Assembly (NCBI GenBank): GCA_040879725.1
Contig: JBBDJV010000020.1
Span: 9,086 to 73,085, forward strand
Length of the DNA: 64,000 nucleotides
Origin: Minisyncoccota bacterium
GTDB lineage: Bacteria > Patescibacteriota > Minisyncoccia > Phycocordibacterales > GCA-2401445
Direction of reading: 5' to 3'
The notes under the pieces are model-generated. The model searched no databases and was not told the DNA's origin. It worked only from the letters and a program-made list of their open reading frames with translations. Position 1 is the stretch's first letter. Each line of letters opens with the position of its first letter. The translations under genes were made by a program, and so were the position numbers. Positions 8,370 to 59,575 of this stretch are shown here, in pieces.

Positions 8370-8822
8370 ATGACACTTCAAGAACAAATAAAAGCAGACA
8401 TGATTTCTGCAATGAAAGCAAAAAACCCAACCGCAACAACAGCACTTAAGAGTATGTTGTCTGCTTTTACAAACGAACTTGTGAATCTAAAACGAACTCC
8501 ACAGGACAAACTAACAGACGAAGAAGCTATTGTGGTAATAAAGCGTGGTATTAAGCAACGAAAAGATTCTGTTGCGCAGTATGAATCAGCAGGCAGACCG
8601 GAGTTAGCGGAAACAGAGAAGGTTGAAATTGAAGTACTTGAAAAATATCTTCCGGCTTCAATGAGTAAAGATGAAATAAAGAAAGTCGCTGTTGCGAAAA
8701 AAGAGGAACTCGGAGTAACCGATAAAGCGGGTATGGGAAAACTAATCGGCATTGTTATGAAGGAACTGCAAGGAAAAGCTGACGGTGGCGATGTAAAAGA
8801 AGTCGTAGAATCACTGTTCTAG
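8370..8822 (+). CDS. GatB/YqeY domain protein
   Basis: MTLQEQIKADMISAMKAK...KRG.KQRKDS...GKADGG is the characteristic YqeY pattern. The ORF is open from 8346, but 8370 is the likely start. Confidence 0.7.
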   Translation: MTLQEQIKADMISAMKAKNPTATTALKSMLSAFTNELVNLKRTPQDKLTDEEAIVVIKRGIKQRKDSVAQYESAGRPELAETEKVEIEVLEKYLPASMSKDEIKKVAVAKKEELGVTDKAGMGKLIGIVMKELQGKADGGDVKEVVESLF

Positions 8823-8825
8823 AAA

Positions 8826-8852
8826 ATCCGCCTTATAGGCGGTTTTTTATTT
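8826..8852 (+). terminator. Rho-independent terminator after the GatB/YqeY gene
   Basis: CCGCC-TTATA-GGCGG hairpin followed by TTTTTTATTT. Confidence 0.7.
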
Positions 8853-8895
8853 CTTAGTCTAATTTGGTATAGGTACAGAACGAACAATCTACCCA

Positions 8896-8916
8896 GTACA
8901 AGGGGTCCCCTTGTAC
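8896..8916. repeat. Perfect 10+1+10 palindrome GTACAAGGGG-T-CCCCTTGTAC
   Basis: Seen directly; lies 10 bp upstream of repeat copy 1. Confidence 0.8.
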
Positions 8917-8925
8917 TATGCAATT

Positions 8926-8955
8926 TAAGTGCGCACGCCGGCGTGCGCACTTAAA
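8926..8955. repeat. Interspersed GC-rich palindromic repeat, copy 1 (core GCGCACGCCGGCGTGCGC at 8931-8948)
   Basis: 30-bp perfect palindrome TTAAGTGCGCACGCCGGCGTGCGCACTTAA followed by ATGGCTT. The same core recurs at 24586-24603 and 59357-59374. Confidence 0.85.
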
Positions 8956-9032
8956 TGGCTTAAAATAAGGTTCAAAAAGAACCAATTAACCCCTTGAGAC
9001 ACATTTAGACCTCGAATAAAACACCAATAAAT

Positions 9033-9059
9033 TGACTTTTATACTAAAAATGATATAAT
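9033..9059 (+). promoter_or_regulatory. Sigma70-like promoter with an extended -10
   Basis: -35 TTGACT (9033-9038), 15-nt spacer, then TGaTATAAT (9051-9059). Predicted TSS is about 9066, some 60 nt upstream of the small ORF. Confidence 0.55.
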
Positions 9060-9129
9060 TATATTAGTGAATACCTTACAAAGACGAGTCTCCCTTCGAG
9101 ACAAAGTCCAAAGGGAGTGTTTCCAAATC

Positions 9130-9246
9130 ATGCATTCTGTGGTCGAAGGAAAGATTACAGAAGAACGGGCTGTGGAGCTCATTCGTAAGGCTCAACAGCG
9201 CAAGGAAAAATTTTTCGGAAAAAAAGAAAACCAACCAGTTTTCTGA
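9130..9246 (+). CDS. Small 38-aa protein (MHSVVEGKITEERAVELIRKAQQRKEKFFGKKENQPVF), function unknown
   Basis: AAGGGAG Shine-Dalgarno 12 nt upstream of the ATG, with a promoter upstream and an intrinsic terminator downstream. It is below the ORF-track size cutoff. Confidence 0.5.
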   Translation: MHSVVEGKITEERAVELIRKAQQRKEKFFGKKENQPVF

Positions 9247-9270
9247 CAATCCGAAAAACAAAAACAAGAA

Positions 9271-9296
9271 CGACCCAACAGTGGGTCGTTTTCTTT
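9271..9296 (+). terminator. Rho-independent terminator after the 38-aa ORF
   Basis: CGACCCA-ACAG-TGGGTCG hairpin followed by TTTTCTTT. Confidence 0.65.
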
Positions 9297-9541
9297 ACAC
9301 ACAAAACTGTCTCTGTTACACTTTATTTTGGAACCATTATGCTAAGCAACAACATCGTTCTCTCTCATTCGGACCAATCAGTTATACCGATTGGTATTCG
9401 CAGTGTTTACTGTGGTGGTATTGGAAAAGGTACTTCTACCCTTCCATTCAGACCATTCAAACAGGCACAAAGGAAAAACAAAGGGCGGAAGCGTTGGCCA
9501 TGTAAAACCCAACCCCAGAGTCAACACTGAGAAACTGAAGC

Positions 9542-9572
9542 AGTCCCGCGAGAAATCGCGGGACTTTTCTTA
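9542..9572 (+). terminator. Plus-strand intrinsic terminator overlapping the MYG1 stop codon
   Basis: AGTCCCGCGA-GAAA-TCGCGGGACT 10-bp stem followed by TTTTCTT. This implies a plus-strand transcript across 9297-9540. Confidence 0.5.
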
Positions 9573-10484
9573 TGCATCTAACGCAAGTTGTGCGAGAGCA
9601 AGCGCTCCTTCTTTTGTTTTTGTCGCCGCGATAAATAGCTTATTATGACAGAAGAATGCATCAGAAACTCCGGTTACTTCTGCCATCTCAGTATCACGCA
9701 GTCCTCCCCATGCTTCCGGTAGATTTTTTCTATTTTCAAAACCAGTATCATTTTTACGAACTGTATATACATGCCAGCCGTTTAGAGGGTTTCTGTCAGG
9801 AAGCACAACAAAAAGAATGTCCTTGTATTTTTCTGCCACTCTTTTCCATGGTATGAATTGATCAAGTACGAGCAGTCGTTTGTCTGACGCACTGGTGTAT
9901 GCGTCTTCTGCAATTCTATTCCCCTCAGACCTATCTTTACCAACAGAAATTTCTCGCTCAATCAAGCTCTCCGCAAAAGAAAGAAGTTCAAGAAATACGT
10001 CGTCCTCACTGTCTTCAACCTCTTTCCATGTGGGAACCTTAGAAGCAACATAGCTAGATATGGTATAGGGCGCAACACCACTGTACACCGAAGTGAAAAT
10101 ATCATCTCCGTTATCATCCGCATCTGTTGGAGCAACAAGTTTTTCATCTATCCTATTTGCAACCTCTTCAGATCCACAGAGTATTGTCCCGTATTCTTTC
10201 CATAGTAAACCAAACGAGGCGTAAGAAATACCGTTTTCTCTTTTACCCGCTCCACCGACTTGATGGTGGTCAAACCGTTTTCGCTTTGGATCATATTCAC
10301 CCCCGACATCAAGAACATAATCACCCTTCTCAATAACGCTCACGTCTCTGGTTCTTACTATATGTATCGCATCACGAGGTATTCCTTCACGTTTAAACGC
10401 AAGTAGTAGCACAGCTGTCCCGAATATATCGTCAGCATGGAACCCCCCGTTATGTGTCACTACTGTTATTGGTTTGTGTGTCAT
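9570..10484 (-). CDS. MYG1/UPF0160-family metal-dependent hydrolase
   Basis: N-terminal THNGGFHADD motif and the overall length are typical of the MYG1 family. Confidence 0.75.
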   Translation of the reverse strand: MTHKPITVVTHNGGFHADDIFGTAVLLLAFKREGIPRDAIHIVRTRDVSVIEKGDYVLDVGGEYDPKRKRFDHHQVGGAGKRENGISYASFGLLWKEYGTILCGSEEVANRIDEKLVAPTDADDNGDDIFTSVYSGVAPYTISSYVASKVPTWKEVEDSEDDVFLELLSFAESLIEREISVGKDRSEGNRIAEDAYTSASDKRLLVLDQFIPWKRVAEKYKDILFVVLPDRNPLNGWHVYTVRKNDTGFENRKNLPEAWGGLRDTEMAEVTGVSDAFFCHNKLFIAATKTKEGALALAQLALDA

Positions 10485-19704: not shown

Positions 19705-20733
19705 TTATTTTTTTTCTAAAATCACAACTTCTTTTTCAATGTGAATTCCAAAAGTTTCAAAAACTTTTTTCTCAACATGATCAATCAACTTTCGTACATC
19801 ACTTACGGGAGTATTTTTTTCTGCGACAATTACCAACGGTTGTCTTTCGTACAAACGAGCGCCACCAAATGAAAAACCTTTCATGCCAAGTACTTTATCA
19901 AGTAGCCACGCGAGCGACACTTTTACATCGCCATTTTCAAGTTTATATCCCACCATTTCAGGATACTTAGCTTTTAGTTTATTAAATACATCGCCAGAAA
20001 CTACTGGGTTTTTAAAGAAAGAACCAGCTGTACCAATAGTATTTACATCCGGTAGCTTATTTGTCCGAATTGCAATTACCGCATCACGAACCTCAGAGAG
20101 TGTTGGATTTTGTTTATTAAGAAAAAACTTTTCAAGATCAGGATAGGAAGTATTAACAACACCTTGTGAACTGAGTAAAAAAGTAACTTTTGTAACAATA
20201 TAATTTTTTCCTTCTTCTTTTTTAAAAATACTGCTTCGATATCCAAACTGACAATCACTGTTTTTTATTTTCTTTATTTTCTTATCACTTCTATCAAAAA
20301 CTTCAACACTTTCGATTACATCTTTTGCTTCAGCTCCATACGCACCAATGTTCTGCACCGGTGATGCTCCAACAGAACCCGGTATCAAGGAAAGAAGTTC
20401 AAGACCAAACAAATTTTGCTCTACCGTCATTGCTACAAGTGTGTCCCATTCGACACCCGCGCCGACAACTACTCTTTTTCTGTGTGTGTCGACATCTTCA
20501 AATTCAACACCTTGAATATCTATTTTTAAAACAAGCGCATTATATTCTCCATCATCAAAAAGTGTATTTGAACCTCCTCCAAGCAGAATGACCGGAACAC
20601 TCTTTTCTTCTGCAAAATCAAACACCTCCGACAACTCCTCTGTTTGGGTTACCGATACAAAAAAACGAGCAGTACCTCCCACCTTAAACGTAGTATATGT
20701 TGAGAGAGGGACATGCTCGTGTACGTGAATCAT
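19705..20733 (-). CDS. murB: UDP-N-acetylenolpyruvoylglucosamine reductase
   Basis: FAD-binding PCMH domain (FKVGGTARFF...LGGGSN), central SxxxG pattern and a MurB C-terminal domain; 342 aa. Confidence 0.8.
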   Translation of the reverse strand: MIHVHEHVPLSTYTTFKVGGTARFFVSVTQTEELSEVFDFAEEKSVPVILLGGGSNTLFDDGEYNALVLKIDIQGVEFEDVDTHRKRVVVGAGVEWDTLVAMTVEQNLFGLELLSLIPGSVGASPVQNIGAYGAEAKDVIESVEVFDRSDKKIKKIKNSDCQFGYRSSIFKKEEGKNYIVTKVTFLLSSQGVVNTSYPDLEKFFLNKQNPTLSEVRDAVIAIRTNKLPDVNTIGTAGSFFKNPVVSGDVFNKLKAKYPEMVGYKLENGDVKVSLAWLLDKVLGMKGFSFGGARLYERQPLVIVAEKNTPVSDVRKLIDHVEKKVFETFGIHIEKEVVILEKK

Positions 20734-20861
20734 AGTATGAGTATGTTACGTTGCGAAGCGGCCGACGAGGCAAACTCCAAAACAAATGTCTTATGTGAGC
20801 GCAGTCGCCGGCCACTTCGCAAAACAACGTAGATTTATAGTATCACAGCACTAGGAAACAC

Positions 20862-20886
20862 AAAACCCCGCTTGCGCGGGGGTTTA
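20862..20886 (-). terminator. Terminator of the upstream O-antigen-ligase-like gene
   Basis: CCCCGC-TTGC-GCGGGG hairpin followed by a minus-strand TTTTGTGTTT. Confidence 0.6.
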
Positions 20887-20991
20887 TGCAGACATTCGTT
20901 AAGTGTTTACTCTTTGTAAACGCTCACGAATGTATTATAGCAAATCAGATTTTTTTGTCAATAGAGCCGTATTCTCAGCGTTTACTCCCTA

Positions 20992-24447: not shown

Positions 24448-24581
24448 GAATTTATACTACCAGAAACTACTTAAGTATGGAAGAAATATACATCCATACT
24501 CTCAAAATGAGTAGCAAATAATGCTTCTACACTGGAAATTTGAATACTACAGGGCAAATTCATGCCTTAACAAAGCCATTT

Positions 24582-24615
24582 AAATGCGCACGCCGGCGTG
24601 CGCATTTATTTTTAT
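24582..24615 (+). repeat. GC-rich palindromic repeat, copy 2 (core 24586-24603), with a T-run; terminator-like
   Basis: AAATGCGCACGCCGGCGTGCGCATTT followed by ATTTTTAT. The flanking 45 bp (24536-24581) match the flank of copy 3 in inverted orientation. Confidence 0.8.
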
Positions 24616-24703
24616 AGAGGTTTAACCTCGTTTGAAATAACTTAATTCAGAAGTCTTACTATATATCGTAAGAAATGCTTTTTGATCAAAGTAACTCAGT
24701 GGC

Positions 24704-58505: not shown

Positions 58506-58518
58506 AATCTATGTGTTA

Positions 58519-58794
58519 CTAGAGCGATGAAGAGGTATCATCAGATAAATGTGTTTTCTCTTCTTCATACTCTTCCTCAGGTTCGGGAGAAGTATCTTTT
58601 GTGTCAGTATCTTGTGAATTTTCTACTTCATAAAACTCTTCAAAGTCATTTTTAAGTGAGAAAGAAAGAATTACGATAAGTGCACCAATTACTACAAAGG
58701 CAATTGTTTTCCATTCACTATACACCCCAAGCAATGGGATCAGTACCACAAAAATTCCAAGCCAAATAAGTATAGTGAGTTTTTTCATACGCAA
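58519..58794 (-). CDS. Small membrane protein with two TM helices and an acidic C-terminal tail
   Basis: ORF only; hydrophobic N-terminal half followed by a D/E-rich C-terminus. Confidence 0.35.
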   Translation of the reverse strand: MRMKKLTILIWLGIFVVLIPLLGVYSEWKTIAFVVIGALIVILSFSLKNDFEEFYEVENSQDTDTKDTSPEPEEEYEEEKTHLSDDTSSSL

Positions 58795-58878
58795 ATATTA
58801 TATCGAAAATAGTTAGAAGAACCTAATATTGACCTGAATGCTATCTAGGGTAAAGTATAGGAGGAAGGAAAATTAGTT

Positions 58879-59154
58879 ATGACAAAACCACTAGCACTAA
58901 GCGAGGACATGTTCGTCCCTCTCGTCGACTGGTGGTTTGAGCTCAAATCACCAGTCGCGGGAACATTCCGCGGCAAAGTAACAAAGTATGAACTTCTCTC
59001 ACCTCACCAGGTTAATATCTCTTGGGTTGAAGAAGGAAACTCAAAAATCGTTACCCTTACGTTTTCCGTTTGGAAGGAGGAAGTTGGAAAAATCACCTTC
59101 AAAACGGACATGTTCGGAGAAACCGGAATTTTTACAAAGACCCTGATCGCGTAA
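58879..59154 (+). CDS. Hypothetical 91-aa protein
   Basis: Strong Shine-Dalgarno AGGAGGAAGGAAA 10 nt upstream of the ATG at 58879. Confidence 0.5.
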   Translation: MTKPLALSEDMFVPLVDWWFELKSPVAGTFRGKVTKYELLSPHQVNISWVEEGNSKIVTLTFSVWKEEVGKITFKTDMFGETGIFTKTLIA

Positions 59155-59575
59155 TGCGGTTGGGGTTTCTTTTTTAAAAAATTAAATAAGTTTTTAAACG
59201 AGATTTTCTGAACGAAATTTAACCTCGTTCAAAAAAATCCTGAGGTTTAACCTCAGGAAAAAAACCTCATGAGAAAAGTAACAGATATGACAACCACCAT
59301 AGATGCAAAAAACCCCAGGTGTACCGATATATCGGTACACCTTTATAAAAATAAATGCGCACGCCGGCGTGCGCATTTAAATGGCTTTGTTTAGCCATGT
59401 ATTTACCCTGTAGTATTCAATTTCCTACTGAACGAGATTAAACCTCGTTCAGAATTAGCTATATATAGCAACGTATTTTTCTCCCGAGGTTTAACCTCGC
59501 TGAAAAGTTTAACCTCGCTGAAAAGTTTCCTGAGGTTTAACCTCAGGAGAGAACCTTGGAGAATACGTATTCGTA
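59155..59575. repeat. Repeat- and hairpin-dense convergent intergenic region, including GC-palindrome repeat copy 3 (core 59357-59374)
   Basis: Contains several GAGGTTTAACCTC-type inverted repeats: 59209-59231, 59239-59257, 59428-59452, 59486-59498 and 59539-59557. Also contains tandem 18-mers GTTTAACCTCGCTGAAAA (59489-59524), the palindromes CTCATGAG and GAATACGTATTC, and two stacked minus-strand terminators (59357-59374 with a T-run; 59317-59342 followed by GGGGTTTTTT). Confidence 0.8.

What the first reader, a model, noticed from the sequence alone, without database searches (positions are those of the whole stretch)
8850..9572. 720-bp gene-free stretch holding a strong promoter / 38-aa ORF / terminator cassette plus a second terminator-bounded 250-nt unit
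Between the YqeY terminator and the MYG1 gene lies an atypically long non-coding span for this compact genome. It contains, in order:
- two perfect palindromes;
- a near-consensus extended -10 promoter (TTGACT-15-TGaTATAAT, 9033-9059);
- a 5' UTR with a small hairpin;
- an AAGGGAG Shine-Dalgarno and a 38-aa ORF (9130-9246);
- an intrinsic terminator (9271-9296);
- a further roughly 245 nt with no convincing ORF;
- a strong plus-strand terminator (9542-9572).

The second unit may be a small RNA or a second tiny protein. The 38-aa basic helical peptide, with its own promoter and terminator, has the layout of a standalone small regulatory or membrane-active protein gene.
Basis: seen in the sequence. 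Interest (0 to 1): 0.55.

Follow-up and report, generated by a model that had tools for sequence, protein, structure and literature searches.

The report
Two unannotated tiny protein genes
The long "empty" stretch between two ordinary genes of an uncultured Paceibacterota (CPR) bacterium most likely holds two separate, unannotated genes for tiny basic proteins of about 38-59 and 63 amino acids, which makes it a modest annotation gap, not a new kind of element.

Summary
They are two perfect palindromes, a near-consensus extended -10 promoter, a hairpin, the 38-aa ORF and two intrinsic terminators.

One statement is wrong. The second unit does hold a convincing ORF: a 63-aa ATG ORF at 9339-9530.

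The only syntenic relative found is L140, a Paceibacterota MAG whose MYG1 is 59% and YqeY 79% identical. It has the same layout: promoter, ORF, terminator, second promoter, ORF, terminator.

**Unit 2** is conserved at protein level:
- BLASTP E = 2e-6 end to end, and 0 of 5000 shuffles reach the score.
- 11 of 20 identical residues use different codons.
- It is best read as a small, very basic protein (pI 11), not an sRNA.

**Unit 1** keeps an ORF that fills the transcript in both genomes, but amino-acid similarity is weak (p about 0.01-0.02). Its start is ambiguous:
- ATG 9130 gives 38 aa. Gene-like composition favours it.
- GTG 9067, at the predicted transcription start, gives 59 aa. This fits a genome poor in Shine-Dalgarno sites and rich in leaderless-type starts, and L140 has only the start at the 5' end.

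Neither protein matches any known family, and Rfam finds nothing. Function is unknown. Only two genomes carry the cassette, so the comparative evidence is thin.

The parts
8828..8850 (+). Intrinsic terminator of the YqeY gene (CCGCCTTATAGGCGG followed by TTTTTTAT).
   Evidence: Terminator scan; predicted fold energy -13.0 kcal/mol.
8895..8917 (.). Perfect palindrome A (AGTACAAGGGG T CCCCTTGTACT). Role unknown.
   Evidence: Found (I9); hairpin energy -14.4 kcal/mol.
8924..8955 (.). Perfect 32-bp GC-rich palindrome B (TTTAAGTGCGCACGCC|GGCGTGCGCACTTAAA). It is one of three copies of an intergenic repeat in the window. Role unknown; it could be an operator, an insulator or a hairpin.
   Evidence: Zero copies are expected by chance. 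The motif is absent from the 145 other loci.
9032..9059 (+). Promoter P1: TTGACT-16-TATAAT with an extended -10 (TGaTATAAT). The predicted transcription start is near 9066-9067.
   Evidence: second-best consensus match in 64 kb. L140 has TGgTATAAT at the matching place. The transcription start is inferred, not measured.
9067..9246 (+). Unit 1 ORF, long form: 59 aa from a GTG that lies 7 nt after the -10 box (leaderless type), stop codon included.
   Evidence: For the long form:
- ORF listed.
- L140 has a 61-aa ORF whose ATG lies 9 nt after its -10 box.
- 24 of 54 genes have a TAnnnT box 4-10 nt before the start codon.
- The AF2 helix 10-26 spans the internal Met.

Against: codons 1-21 score as non-coding (-10.7).
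9090..9117 (+). Hairpin CTCCCTT...AAGGGAG. It pairs the putative SD (9111-9117) with 9090-9096.
   Evidence: -12.3 kcal/mol.
9130..9246 (+). Unit 1 ORF, short form: 38 aa from ATG, 12 nt after AAGGGAG. The product is basic, hydrophilic and helical, with a sub-threshold SHOCT-like match.
   Evidence: - The coding score is +6.0, gene-like; only 0.3% of off-frame segments reach it.
- Pfam PF22746 matches at E = 0.0032 with 17.5 bits, below the cut-off of 27.
- pI is 9.7 and GRAVY -0.93.
9269..9296 (.). Terminator T1 (AACGACCCA acag TGGGTCGTT followed by TTCTTT). It is bidirectional, because a T-rich tail follows it on the minus strand as well.
   Evidence: -15.6 kcal/mol. L140 has a terminator at the matching place.
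9294..9322 (+). Promoter-like site P2: TTTACA-17-TACACT with an upstream TG. It overlaps the T1 tail.
   Evidence: 9 of 12, TG present. L140 has TTTACA-16-TACTAT with TG at the same position. The 11-mer TTTTCTTTACA is identical in both genomes.
9339..9530 (+). Unit 2 ORF: a 63-aa very basic protein (pI 11.1), stop codon included. It has a short leader or none.
   Evidence: - ORF listed.
- BLASTP against the L140 59-aa ORF gives E = 2e-6 end to end.
- The Smith-Waterman score is 65, against 22.6 +/- 4.6 in shuffles; 0 of 5000 reach it.
- 11 of 20 identical residues use different codons.
- The ORF frame pair scores 65, against 27 or less for the other 17 frame pairs.
9542..9572 (.). Terminator T2 (AGTCCCGCGA gaaa TCGCGGGACT followed by TTTTCTT). 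It is shared with the convergent MYG1 gene, whose stop codon is at 9570-9572.
   Evidence: -22.1 kcal/mol. L140 has an equivalent 13-bp stem.

Best explanation
The stretch holds two independent, unannotated small-protein genes on the plus strand. They sit between convergent housekeeping genes: YqeY on the plus strand and MYG1 on the minus strand.

**Gene 1.**
- It is transcribed from one of the strongest sigma-70-type promoters in the window. The transcription start is inferred at about 9066.
- Its roughly 230-nt mRNA is unusually structured and ends at terminator T1.
- It encodes a hydrophilic, basic, two-helix protein.
- That protein is either 59 aa, translated leaderless from GTG 9067, or 38 aa from ATG 9130.

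**Gene 2.**
- It is transcribed from a weaker extended -10 promoter whose -35 box overlaps the T1 tail.
- It has little or no leader and ends at terminator T2, which it shares with MYG1.
- It encodes a 63-aa protein with a short predicted beta-hairpin and a highly basic, proline-containing C-terminal tail (net charge about +10).

**What is shown and what is inferred.**
- Shown: the sequence signals, the ORFs, and their conservation in one relative.
- Inferred: transcription starts, actual translation, and function.

**Functional guess (low confidence).** Both are abundant small basic proteins that bind nucleic acid, the ribosome or a partner protein. They are not membrane peptides or regulatory RNAs.
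For: **Same architecture in the only syntenic relative.** L140 (MYG1 59%, YqeY 79% identical) has the same order of parts.

**Unit 2.**
- BLASTP E = 2e-6 over the full length.
- 0 of 5000 shuffles reach the alignment score.
- Synonymous codon differences occur at 11 of 20 conserved residues, including Arg AGA/AGG to CGC and Ser AGT to TCC.
- The ORF frame is by far the best of 18 frame pairs.

**Unit 1.**
- ORFs fill the transcripts (p = 0.017 and <0.0003).
- The ORF frame is the best of 18 frame pairs (36 against 27 or less).
- Alignment p = 0.024 to 0.007.
- The 38 codons from 9130 have gene-like composition.
- AF2 gives a confident helical hairpin, with pLDDT 86-96 for residues 11-40.

**No RNA evidence.**
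- No Rfam family matches, even at E up to 10.
- The two unit 1 RNAs share no secondary structure.

**Promoters and terminators.**
Against: - Only two genomes carry the cassette, so conservation rests on a single pairwise comparison.
- The unit 1 proteins give no BLASTP alignment, and the N-terminal 21 codons look non-coding.
- The unit 1 coding region is unusually structured as RNA: z = -3.2 to -3.5, against -0.04 +/- 1.1 for coding segments. This would also fit an sRNA.
- ORF63 and both L140 ORFs score poorly on codon composition.
- No homologue of ORF63 turned up in 5.8 billion clustered proteins or 1.84 billion representatives.
- The gene callers behind the public records did not call three of the four ORFs.
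- The AF2 model of ORF63 is poor (pLDDT 61).
- There is no expression data.
Confidence: 0.62

Rival explanations
1. Unit 1 is primarily a structured small RNA, or a dual-function RNA, of about 230 nt. It would be made from the strong promoter, with an incidental or secondary ORF. Unit 2 would still be a small-protein gene.
For: - The unit 1 transcript folds with z = -6.3.
- The ORF part alone gives z = -3.2 to -3.5, which falls in the most structured 4% of coding segments.
- L140 unit 1 gives z = -3.2.
- Strong stand-alone promoters plus terminators are typical of sRNA genes (my own knowledge).
- Amino-acid similarity between the two ORFs is weak.
Against: - The two genomes share no consensus structure: -3.6 kcal/mol, 11 pairs.
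- No Rfam family matches.
- ORFs span the transcript in both genomes.
- The conserved H-x-V-V-[DE] stretch differs mainly at third codon positions.
- The 38-codon part has gene-like composition.
Confidence: 0.2
2. The 245-nt segment 9297-9540 would be a non-coding small RNA, and its 63-aa ORF would be fortuitous.
For: - ORF63 has atypical codon composition (-11.1).
- It has no SD.
- It was not called by gene finders.
- L140 unit 2 folds with z = -4.9, although that figure includes the terminator.
Against: - Protein-level conservation runs from Met1 to the C-terminal His, with synonymous codon replacement.
- The ORF frame pair scores 65, against 27 or less for all other frame pairs.
- The window RNA fold is unremarkable: z = -1.8 with the terminator and -0.65 without.
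- There is no Rfam hit.
Confidence: 0.07
3. The stretch is evolutionary debris. It would be a variable spot downstream of YqeY that collects lineage-specific, possibly non-functional or recently born ORFs, with chance promoter-like and terminator-like signals.
For: - In other Paceibacteria, YqeY is followed by 2-3 small hypothetical genes. They have no Pfam hit and are unrelated to one another between lineages.
- The small ORFs here have no homologues elsewhere.
Against: - The whole cassette order, both promoters and both terminators are retained between two genomes whose flanking proteins are only 59-79% identical.
- The unit 2 protein shows purifying-type conservation.
- The promoter is near-consensus.
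Confidence: 0.08

Closest known systems
Unannotated small-protein genes (sORFs of 50 aa or so) with their own promoter and intrinsic terminator, as found by Ribo-seq and comparative genomics in model bacteria (my own knowledge)
   Same: Each is a stand-alone transcription unit that holds only a tiny ORF. Automatic annotation missed them. They are conserved only in close relatives.
   Different: - They lie in an uncultured CPR/Paceibacterota genome that largely lacks SD sites.
- Translation is probably leaderless or from a very short leader.
- There is no experimental evidence of translation.
SHOCT / SHOCT-like domain (Pfam PF09851, PF22746; described in PMC3581485)
   Same: - Residues 20-47 of the 59-aa form match positions 5-32 of the 32-position SHOCT-like profile.
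- The conserved Gly and the I-T-E-E turn are present between two predicted helices.
   Different: - The score of 17.5 bits is below the curated cut-off of 27.
- The L140 counterpart has Ala-Pro in place of the Gly, and the alignment needs a gap.
- SHOCT is normally a C-terminal appendage of larger proteins, not a free-standing protein.
- The function of SHOCT itself is unknown.
Leaderless mRNAs (start codon at or within a few nt of the transcription start), common in Actinobacteria and Deinococcus (my own knowledge). Loss of the anti-SD in about half of Parcubacteria 16S rRNAs is reported in PMC9297842
   Same: - In both genomes the unit 1 ORF begins 7-9 nt after the -10 box.
- 24 of 54 window genes show the same geometry, and only 1 of 54 has an SD.
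   Different: - The window copy would use GTG, and its first 21 codons look non-coding.
- An internal ATG with an SD-like motif exists.
- The transcription start is not mapped, and the 16S 3' end of this organism lies outside the window.
Dual-function sRNAs that also encode a small peptide (for example SgrS/SgrT, RNAIII/hld, SR1/SR1P; my own knowledge)
   Same: Unit 1 is a strongly promoted, terminator-bounded, highly structured transcript of about 230 nt that contains a small ORF.
   Different: No base-pairing target, no conserved structure and no Rfam family were found. This is only a resemblance in layout.
Double-glycine leader peptides of class II bacteriocins and related RiPPs (my own knowledge)
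   Same: The unit 2 proteins conserve a GG pair at residues 26-27. It is followed by a cationic, proline-containing 36-aa C-terminal part.
   Different: - The leader consensus upstream of GG (L-S-x-x-E-L-x-x-I-x-G-G) is absent.
- No C39-peptidase ABC transporter or modification enzyme lies next to the cassette; the flanking genes are YqeY and MYG1.
- This was not examined further.

Membership tests
SHOCT / SHOCT-like domain (PF09851, PF22746) | Score at or above Pfam's curated gathering threshold. | tested here: not met
   PF22746 scores 17.5 bits against a cut-off of 27, E = 0.0032, for the window protein only. PF09851 was not reported. The L140 protein has no hit.
SHOCT / SHOCT-like domain (PF09851, PF22746) | A unit of about 30 aa made of two amphipathic helices joined by a short turn (PMC3581485). 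| tested here: met
   AF2 predicts helices 10-26 and 32-50 with the turn at EGKIT. pLDDT is 86-96 in the core. This was a single-sequence prediction.
SHOCT / SHOCT-like domain (PF09851, PF22746) | A strongly conserved Gly and Glu, and no insertions or deletions within the domain (PMC3581485). | tested here: inconclusive
   The window protein has the G and the E-E (VVEGKITEE). L140 has VVDAPVQEH, so the Gly is replaced, and the best alignment needs a 2-residue gap.
Any Rfam RNA family (riboswitch, leader, sRNA, 6S, SRP, tmRNA and so on) | Covariance-model score at or above the family's gathering score. | tested here: not met
   - There are 0 hits in the whole window at gathering thresholds.
- At E up to 10 there are only weak, terminator-driven matches far below threshold.
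- The same holds for L140.
Protein-coding gene (unit 2, ORF63) | Cross-species conservation specific to one reading frame, with synonymous codon differences at conserved residues. | tested here: met
   This rests on one relative only.
Protein-coding gene (unit 1, ORF38/59) | Cross-species conservation specific to one reading frame, and gene-like composition. | tested here: inconclusive
   - The ORF frame is the best of 18 frame pairs, but only 36 against 27.
- Shuffle tests give p = 0.024 to 0.007.
- BLASTP finds nothing.
- Codons 22-59 score as gene-like and codons 1-21 do not.
   - AAGGGAG is present, but it lies 12 nt from the ATG and is paired in a -12.3 kcal/mol hairpin.
- Only 1 of 54 genes has an SD-like motif, against 4.2 expected at random.
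- One other small gene (58879-59154) does have GGAGG upstream.
- The 16S anti-SD cannot be checked, because no rRNA lies in the window.
Leaderless mRNA | A start codon at, or within about 3 nt of, the transcription start. | not testable with these tools
   The geometry fits: the -10 box ends 7 nt before the GTG in the window and 9 nt before the ATG in L140. The transcription start is only predicted.
Double-glycine leader bacteriocin/RiPP precursor | A leader consensus ending in GG, plus a nearby C39-peptidase ABC transporter. | tested here: not met
   GG is conserved, but the upstream consensus is absent by inspection. The flanking genes are YqeY, DUF389, MYG1 and VTT-domain proteins. The rest of the genome was not scanned.
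Anti-phage defence or phage protein families (PADLOC, PHROGs) | A significant profile match. | tested here: not met
   The best E-values are 0.02-0.2. tblastn against phage genomes gives E of 0.03 or worse.

The most novel reading that the evidence does not exclude
The two products would be previously unrecognised, lineage-specific, abundant basic proteins. They would associate with the reduced CPR ribosome or nucleoid, for example substituting for missing ribosomal-protein functions. Alternatively, the unit 2 product would be cleaved after its conserved Gly-Gly to release a cationic proline-containing peptide that acts on the host cell of this presumably epibiotic bacterium. Either reading would make the cassette a new functional class of CPR small protein.
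Probability: 0.08. Interest if true: 0.65.

Novelty: new member of a known kind. Interest (0 to 1): 0.3.

Why it matters
- Small proteins are systematically missed in genomes assembled from metagenomes. Three of the four ORFs are absent from a collection of 15 billion predicted proteins.
- CPR bacteria have tiny genomes in which nearly every base is used, so a retained, strongly promoted pair of tiny genes probably has a function.
- The case is a practical warning for annotating this lineage. Gene starts appear to follow a '-10 box then start codon' rule instead of Shine-Dalgarno sites, which affects how small ORFs should be called.
- In itself the finding is an annotation gap with orphan proteins of unknown function, not a new mechanism.

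Tried and rejected
- **Rfam.** I searched the whole window at gathering thresholds, and the region and the L140 spacer at permissive E-values. Nothing credible appeared.
- **tRNA and tmRNA scan.** None found.
- **Relatives through MYG1.** I fetched 80 genome loci and 58 metagenome loci. None holds the spacer or either peptide by blastn, tblastn, nhmmer or six-frame HMM search.
- **Protein database searches.**
  - MYG1 and YqeY searches showed that L140 is the only close relative. All others plateau at about 50% (MYG1) and 58-65% (YqeY) identity.
  - The unit 2 alignment shared no words with any candidate in the 5.8-billion-protein search.
  - The full HMMER scan of 1.84 billion representatives gave one hit, P0122. 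It is a spurious tandem-repeat translation that matches through 'GVRGVYC' repeated six times, so I rejected it.
  - The viral contig scan found nothing.
  - tblastn against phage genomes gave only chance-level hits.
- **Family libraries.** Pfam, NCBIfam, PHROGs and PADLOC gave only a sub-threshold SHOCT-like match.
- **Structure.** The ORF63 model was too poor to search. The helical hairpin of the 59-aa form matched nothing in the PDB with E below 1.
- **Consensus RNA structure of unit 1.** None was found between the two genomes.
- **YqeY-adjacent small genes.** Those in three other Paceibacteria lineages are unrelated to these ORFs and to each other.
- **Type I toxin-antitoxin.** Rejected. 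The peptides are hydrophilic, and no minus-strand promoter-like site lies in the region.
Full report
**Where this is.** The window comes from an uncultured Candidatus Paceibacterota (CPR/Patescibacteria) genome. The flanking proteins are named 'MAG: MYG1 family protein' and 'GatB/YqeY domain-containing protein [Candidatus Paceibacterota bacterium]' in public records. The finding lies between YqeY (plus strand, ends at 8822) and MYG1 (minus strand, 9570-10484). A second assembly of the same organism, L001, is identical over the region. That contig ends inside the large palindrome.

**Checking the observation.** The gap of 747 nt is the second longest of 53 gaps between ORFs of at least 120 aa; the median gap is 8 nt. 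The listed signals are all there:
- The YqeY terminator lies at 8828-8842.
- Perfect palindromes lie at 8895-8917 and 8924-8955.
- The promoter TTGACT-16-TGaTATAAT lies at 9032-9059. It matches 11 of 12 positions and is the second-best consensus match on either strand of the 64-kb window.
- A hairpin lies at 9090-9117 (-12.3 kcal/mol).
- AAGGGAG lies at 9111-9117 and the 38-aa ORF at 9130-9246.
- Terminator stems lie at 9269-9290 and 9542-9565 (-15.6 and -22.1 kcal/mol).

Three corrections are needed:
- The hairpin's 3' arm is the proposed SD, so the SD is sequestered. It also lies 12 nt from the ATG.
- The ORF is open upstream to a GTG at 9067, only 7 nt after the -10 box, which gives 59 aa.
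- The 'roughly 245 nt with no convincing ORF' contains a 63-aa ATG ORF at 9339-9530.

**Is it a known RNA?** No. Rfam gives no hit in the window at gathering thresholds. At E up to 10 it gives only weak matches driven by terminator hairpins. There is no tRNA or tmRNA.

**Relatives.**
- MYG1-based scans of species-representative genomes and JGI metagenomes returned 138 loci. None of them contains the spacer or the peptides.
- Searches of 5.8 billion clustered proteins with MYG1 and YqeY show a single close relative, at 59% and 79% identity. All other Paceibacteria sit on a plateau near 50% and 58-65%.
- That relative is L140 (GCA_964436015.1). It is fully syntenic: RmuC, cation ATPase, DUF389, YqeY, spacer, MYG1, VTT-domain, holin-like, GH15.
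- Its 696-nt spacer has the same architecture, read in the same direction:
  - palindromes;
  - an extended -10 promoter (TGgTATAAT);
  - a 61-aa ORF whose ATG lies 9 nt after the -10 box;
  - a terminator;
  - a second promoter-like site, TTTACA-16-TACTAT with TG;
  - a 59-aa ORF;
  - a strong terminator abutting MYG1.
- The nucleotide sequence is otherwise poorly alignable. An exception is the 11-mer TTTTCTTTACA (terminator-1 tail plus the -35 box of promoter 2), which is identical in both genomes.

**Unit 2 is a protein gene.**
- The 63-aa and 59-aa ORFs align from Met1 to the C-terminal His, with BLASTP E = 2e-6.
- The Smith-Waterman score is 65, against 22.6 +/- 4.6 for shuffles, and 0 of 5000 shuffles reach it.
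- Of 20 identical residues, 11 use different codons. These include changes that need two or three substitutions: Arg AGA/AGG to CGC, and Ser AGT to TCC.
- Among all 18 same-strand frame pairs, the ORF frames score 65 and every other pair scores 27 or less.
- The RNA is not unusually structured: z = -1.8 with the terminator and -0.65 for the ORF alone.
- The protein is very basic: pI 11.1, 11 K+R against 1 D+E.
- Conserved positions are I-P-x-G, G-G, L-P, R-K, [KR]-W-P and P-x-S-x-H-stop.
- AF2 without an alignment gives only a short beta-hairpin and low confidence (pLDDT 61).
- Codon composition is atypical, which probably explains why gene callers missed it.

**Unit 1 is probably a protein gene, with an uncertain start.**
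- *Evidence for coding:*
  - An ORF fills the promoter-to-terminator interval in both genomes (p = 0.017 and <0.0003 against dinucleotide shuffles).
  - The ORF frame pair gives the best amino-acid score of 18 pairs (36 against 27 or less).
  - Shuffle tests give p = 0.024 to 0.007.
  - The motif F-x-[IL]-[ML]-H-x-V-V-[ED] is shared, with differences mostly at third codon positions.
  - AF2 predicts a confident two-helix hairpin.
  - A sub-threshold SHOCT-like match covers residues 20-47 (E = 0.0032, 17.5 bits against a cut-off of 27).
- *Evidence for the 38-aa form:*
  - A three-periodic Markov model trained on the window's genes scores codons 22-59 as gene-like (+6.0; 0.3% of off-frame segments reach that).
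  - The same model scores codons 1-21 as clearly non-coding (-10.7; no real 21-codon segment scores that low).
  - The N-terminal extensions of the two genomes are not significantly similar (p = 0.43).
- *Evidence for the 59-aa form:*
  - The genome is SD-poor. One of 54 genes has an SD-like motif, against 4.2 expected at random positions.
  - Leaderless-type starts are common. Twenty-four of 54 genes have a TAnnnT box ending 4-10 nt before the start, against 7.0 +/- 2.3 at random.
  - L140 genes show the same geometry.
  - About half of Parcubacteria 16S rRNAs are reported to lack the anti-SD motif (PMC9297842).
  - In L140 there is no start codon between the 5'-end ATG and the conserved H-A-V-V.
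  - AF2 helix 1 (residues 10-26) and the SHOCT-like profile both begin upstream of Met22.
- I cannot decide between the two starts. Both forms could be made.

**The RNA rival for unit 1.** The transcript is unusually structured. The whole unit gives z = -6.3. The ORF part gives z = -3.2 to -3.5, against a background of -0.04 +/- 1.1 for coding segments of this genome, of which 4% reach -3. L140 unit 1 gives z = -3.2. However, RNAalifold finds no shared structure and no RNA family matches. I keep this rival at about 0.2. A dual-function transcript is not excluded.

**What the proteins are.** Neither has a significant match in any resource tried:
- Pfam, NCBIfam, PHROGs or PADLOC;
- phage genomes or viral contigs;
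- the PDB by fold;
- the 1.84-billion-protein representative library, where the single hit is a spurious repeat translation.

Both are hydrophilic and basic, so a membrane-active role is unlikely. The most economical guess is that they are small nucleic-acid-, ribosome- or protein-binding factors. That guess is inference from charge and expression signals only.

**Context.** In three other Paceibacteria lineages, YqeY is followed on the same strand by two or three small hypothetical genes. These have no Pfam hit and are unrelated to each other and to the ORFs here. The position downstream of YqeY therefore behaves as a variable spot for lineage-specific small genes.

**Verdict.** This is an ordinary kind of feature (unannotated small-protein genes) with orphan, lineage-restricted products. 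The evidence is limited to two genomes and there are no expression data.

Noticed in passing
window 20858-20961 (minus strand): The best sigma-70 consensus match in the window lies here: TTGACA-16-TGcTATAAT, 12 of 12 with TG, at 20961-20934. It is followed by a unit of about 65 nt with a hairpin and an intrinsic terminator (AAACCCCCGCGCAAGCGGGGTTTTGTGTTT). The unit has no ORF of 20 aa or more on that strand and no Rfam hit. It is a candidate short sRNA or leader upstream of the gene at 19705-20733.
   Followed up: partly
window 8924-8955, 24581-24608, 59352-59379: A GC-rich perfect palindrome, TAAA[T/G]GCGCACGCCGGCGTGCGC[A/C]TTTA, occurs three times, always between genes, against 0 expected by chance. 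Each copy has a different perfect palindrome next to it (8895-8917; 24617-24629; 59317-59342). Copies 2 and 3 share about 75 more nucleotides, including a TAGTAT box. The motif is absent from L140 and from 144 other loci. It could be an operator, an insulator or a repeat element.
   Followed up: partly
window 24617-24629, 59242-59254, 59486-59498, 59532-59544; L140 7530-7542: The palindrome GAGGTNNNACCTC has 4 exact copies in the window, against 0.04 expected, all between genes. Among the 146 fetched loci (about 1 Mb) it occurs only in L140, inside the syntenic spacer upstream of the unit 1 promoter. The target region itself has only a half-site-like TTTAGACCTCG at 9005-9015.
   Followed up: partly
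window, all genes (upstream regions): The genome appears to initiate translation mostly without Shine-Dalgarno sites. One of 54 genes has an SD-like motif, against 4.2 expected at random. Twenty-four of 54 have a TAnnnT box ending 4-10 nt before the start codon, against 7.0 +/- 2.3 at random, which suggests widespread leaderless mRNAs. L140 genes look the same.
   Followed up: partly
window 58506-59575: The longest gap in the window (1070 nt) holds two more small genes that fall below the 120-aa ORF list. One is a 91-aa membrane-like ORF at 58519-58794 on the minus strand. The other is a 91-aa ORF at 58879-59154 on the plus strand, with a rare GGAGGAAGG motif upstream. A hairpin-rich tail with several GAGGTTTAACCTC copies follows.
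   Followed up: no
L142 2955-4073; L143 3146-4556; L145 3113-4368: In other Paceibacteria, the gene order cation ATPase (minus strand) then YqeY (plus strand) is followed by 2-3 small hypothetical genes. They have no Pfam hit and are unrelated between lineages. This looks like a variable orphan-gene spot downstream of YqeY.
   Followed up: partly
L001 end / window 8927: The independent Logan assembly of the same organism ends exactly inside the 32-bp palindrome. This suggests that the palindrome breaks short-read assemblies.
   Followed up: no
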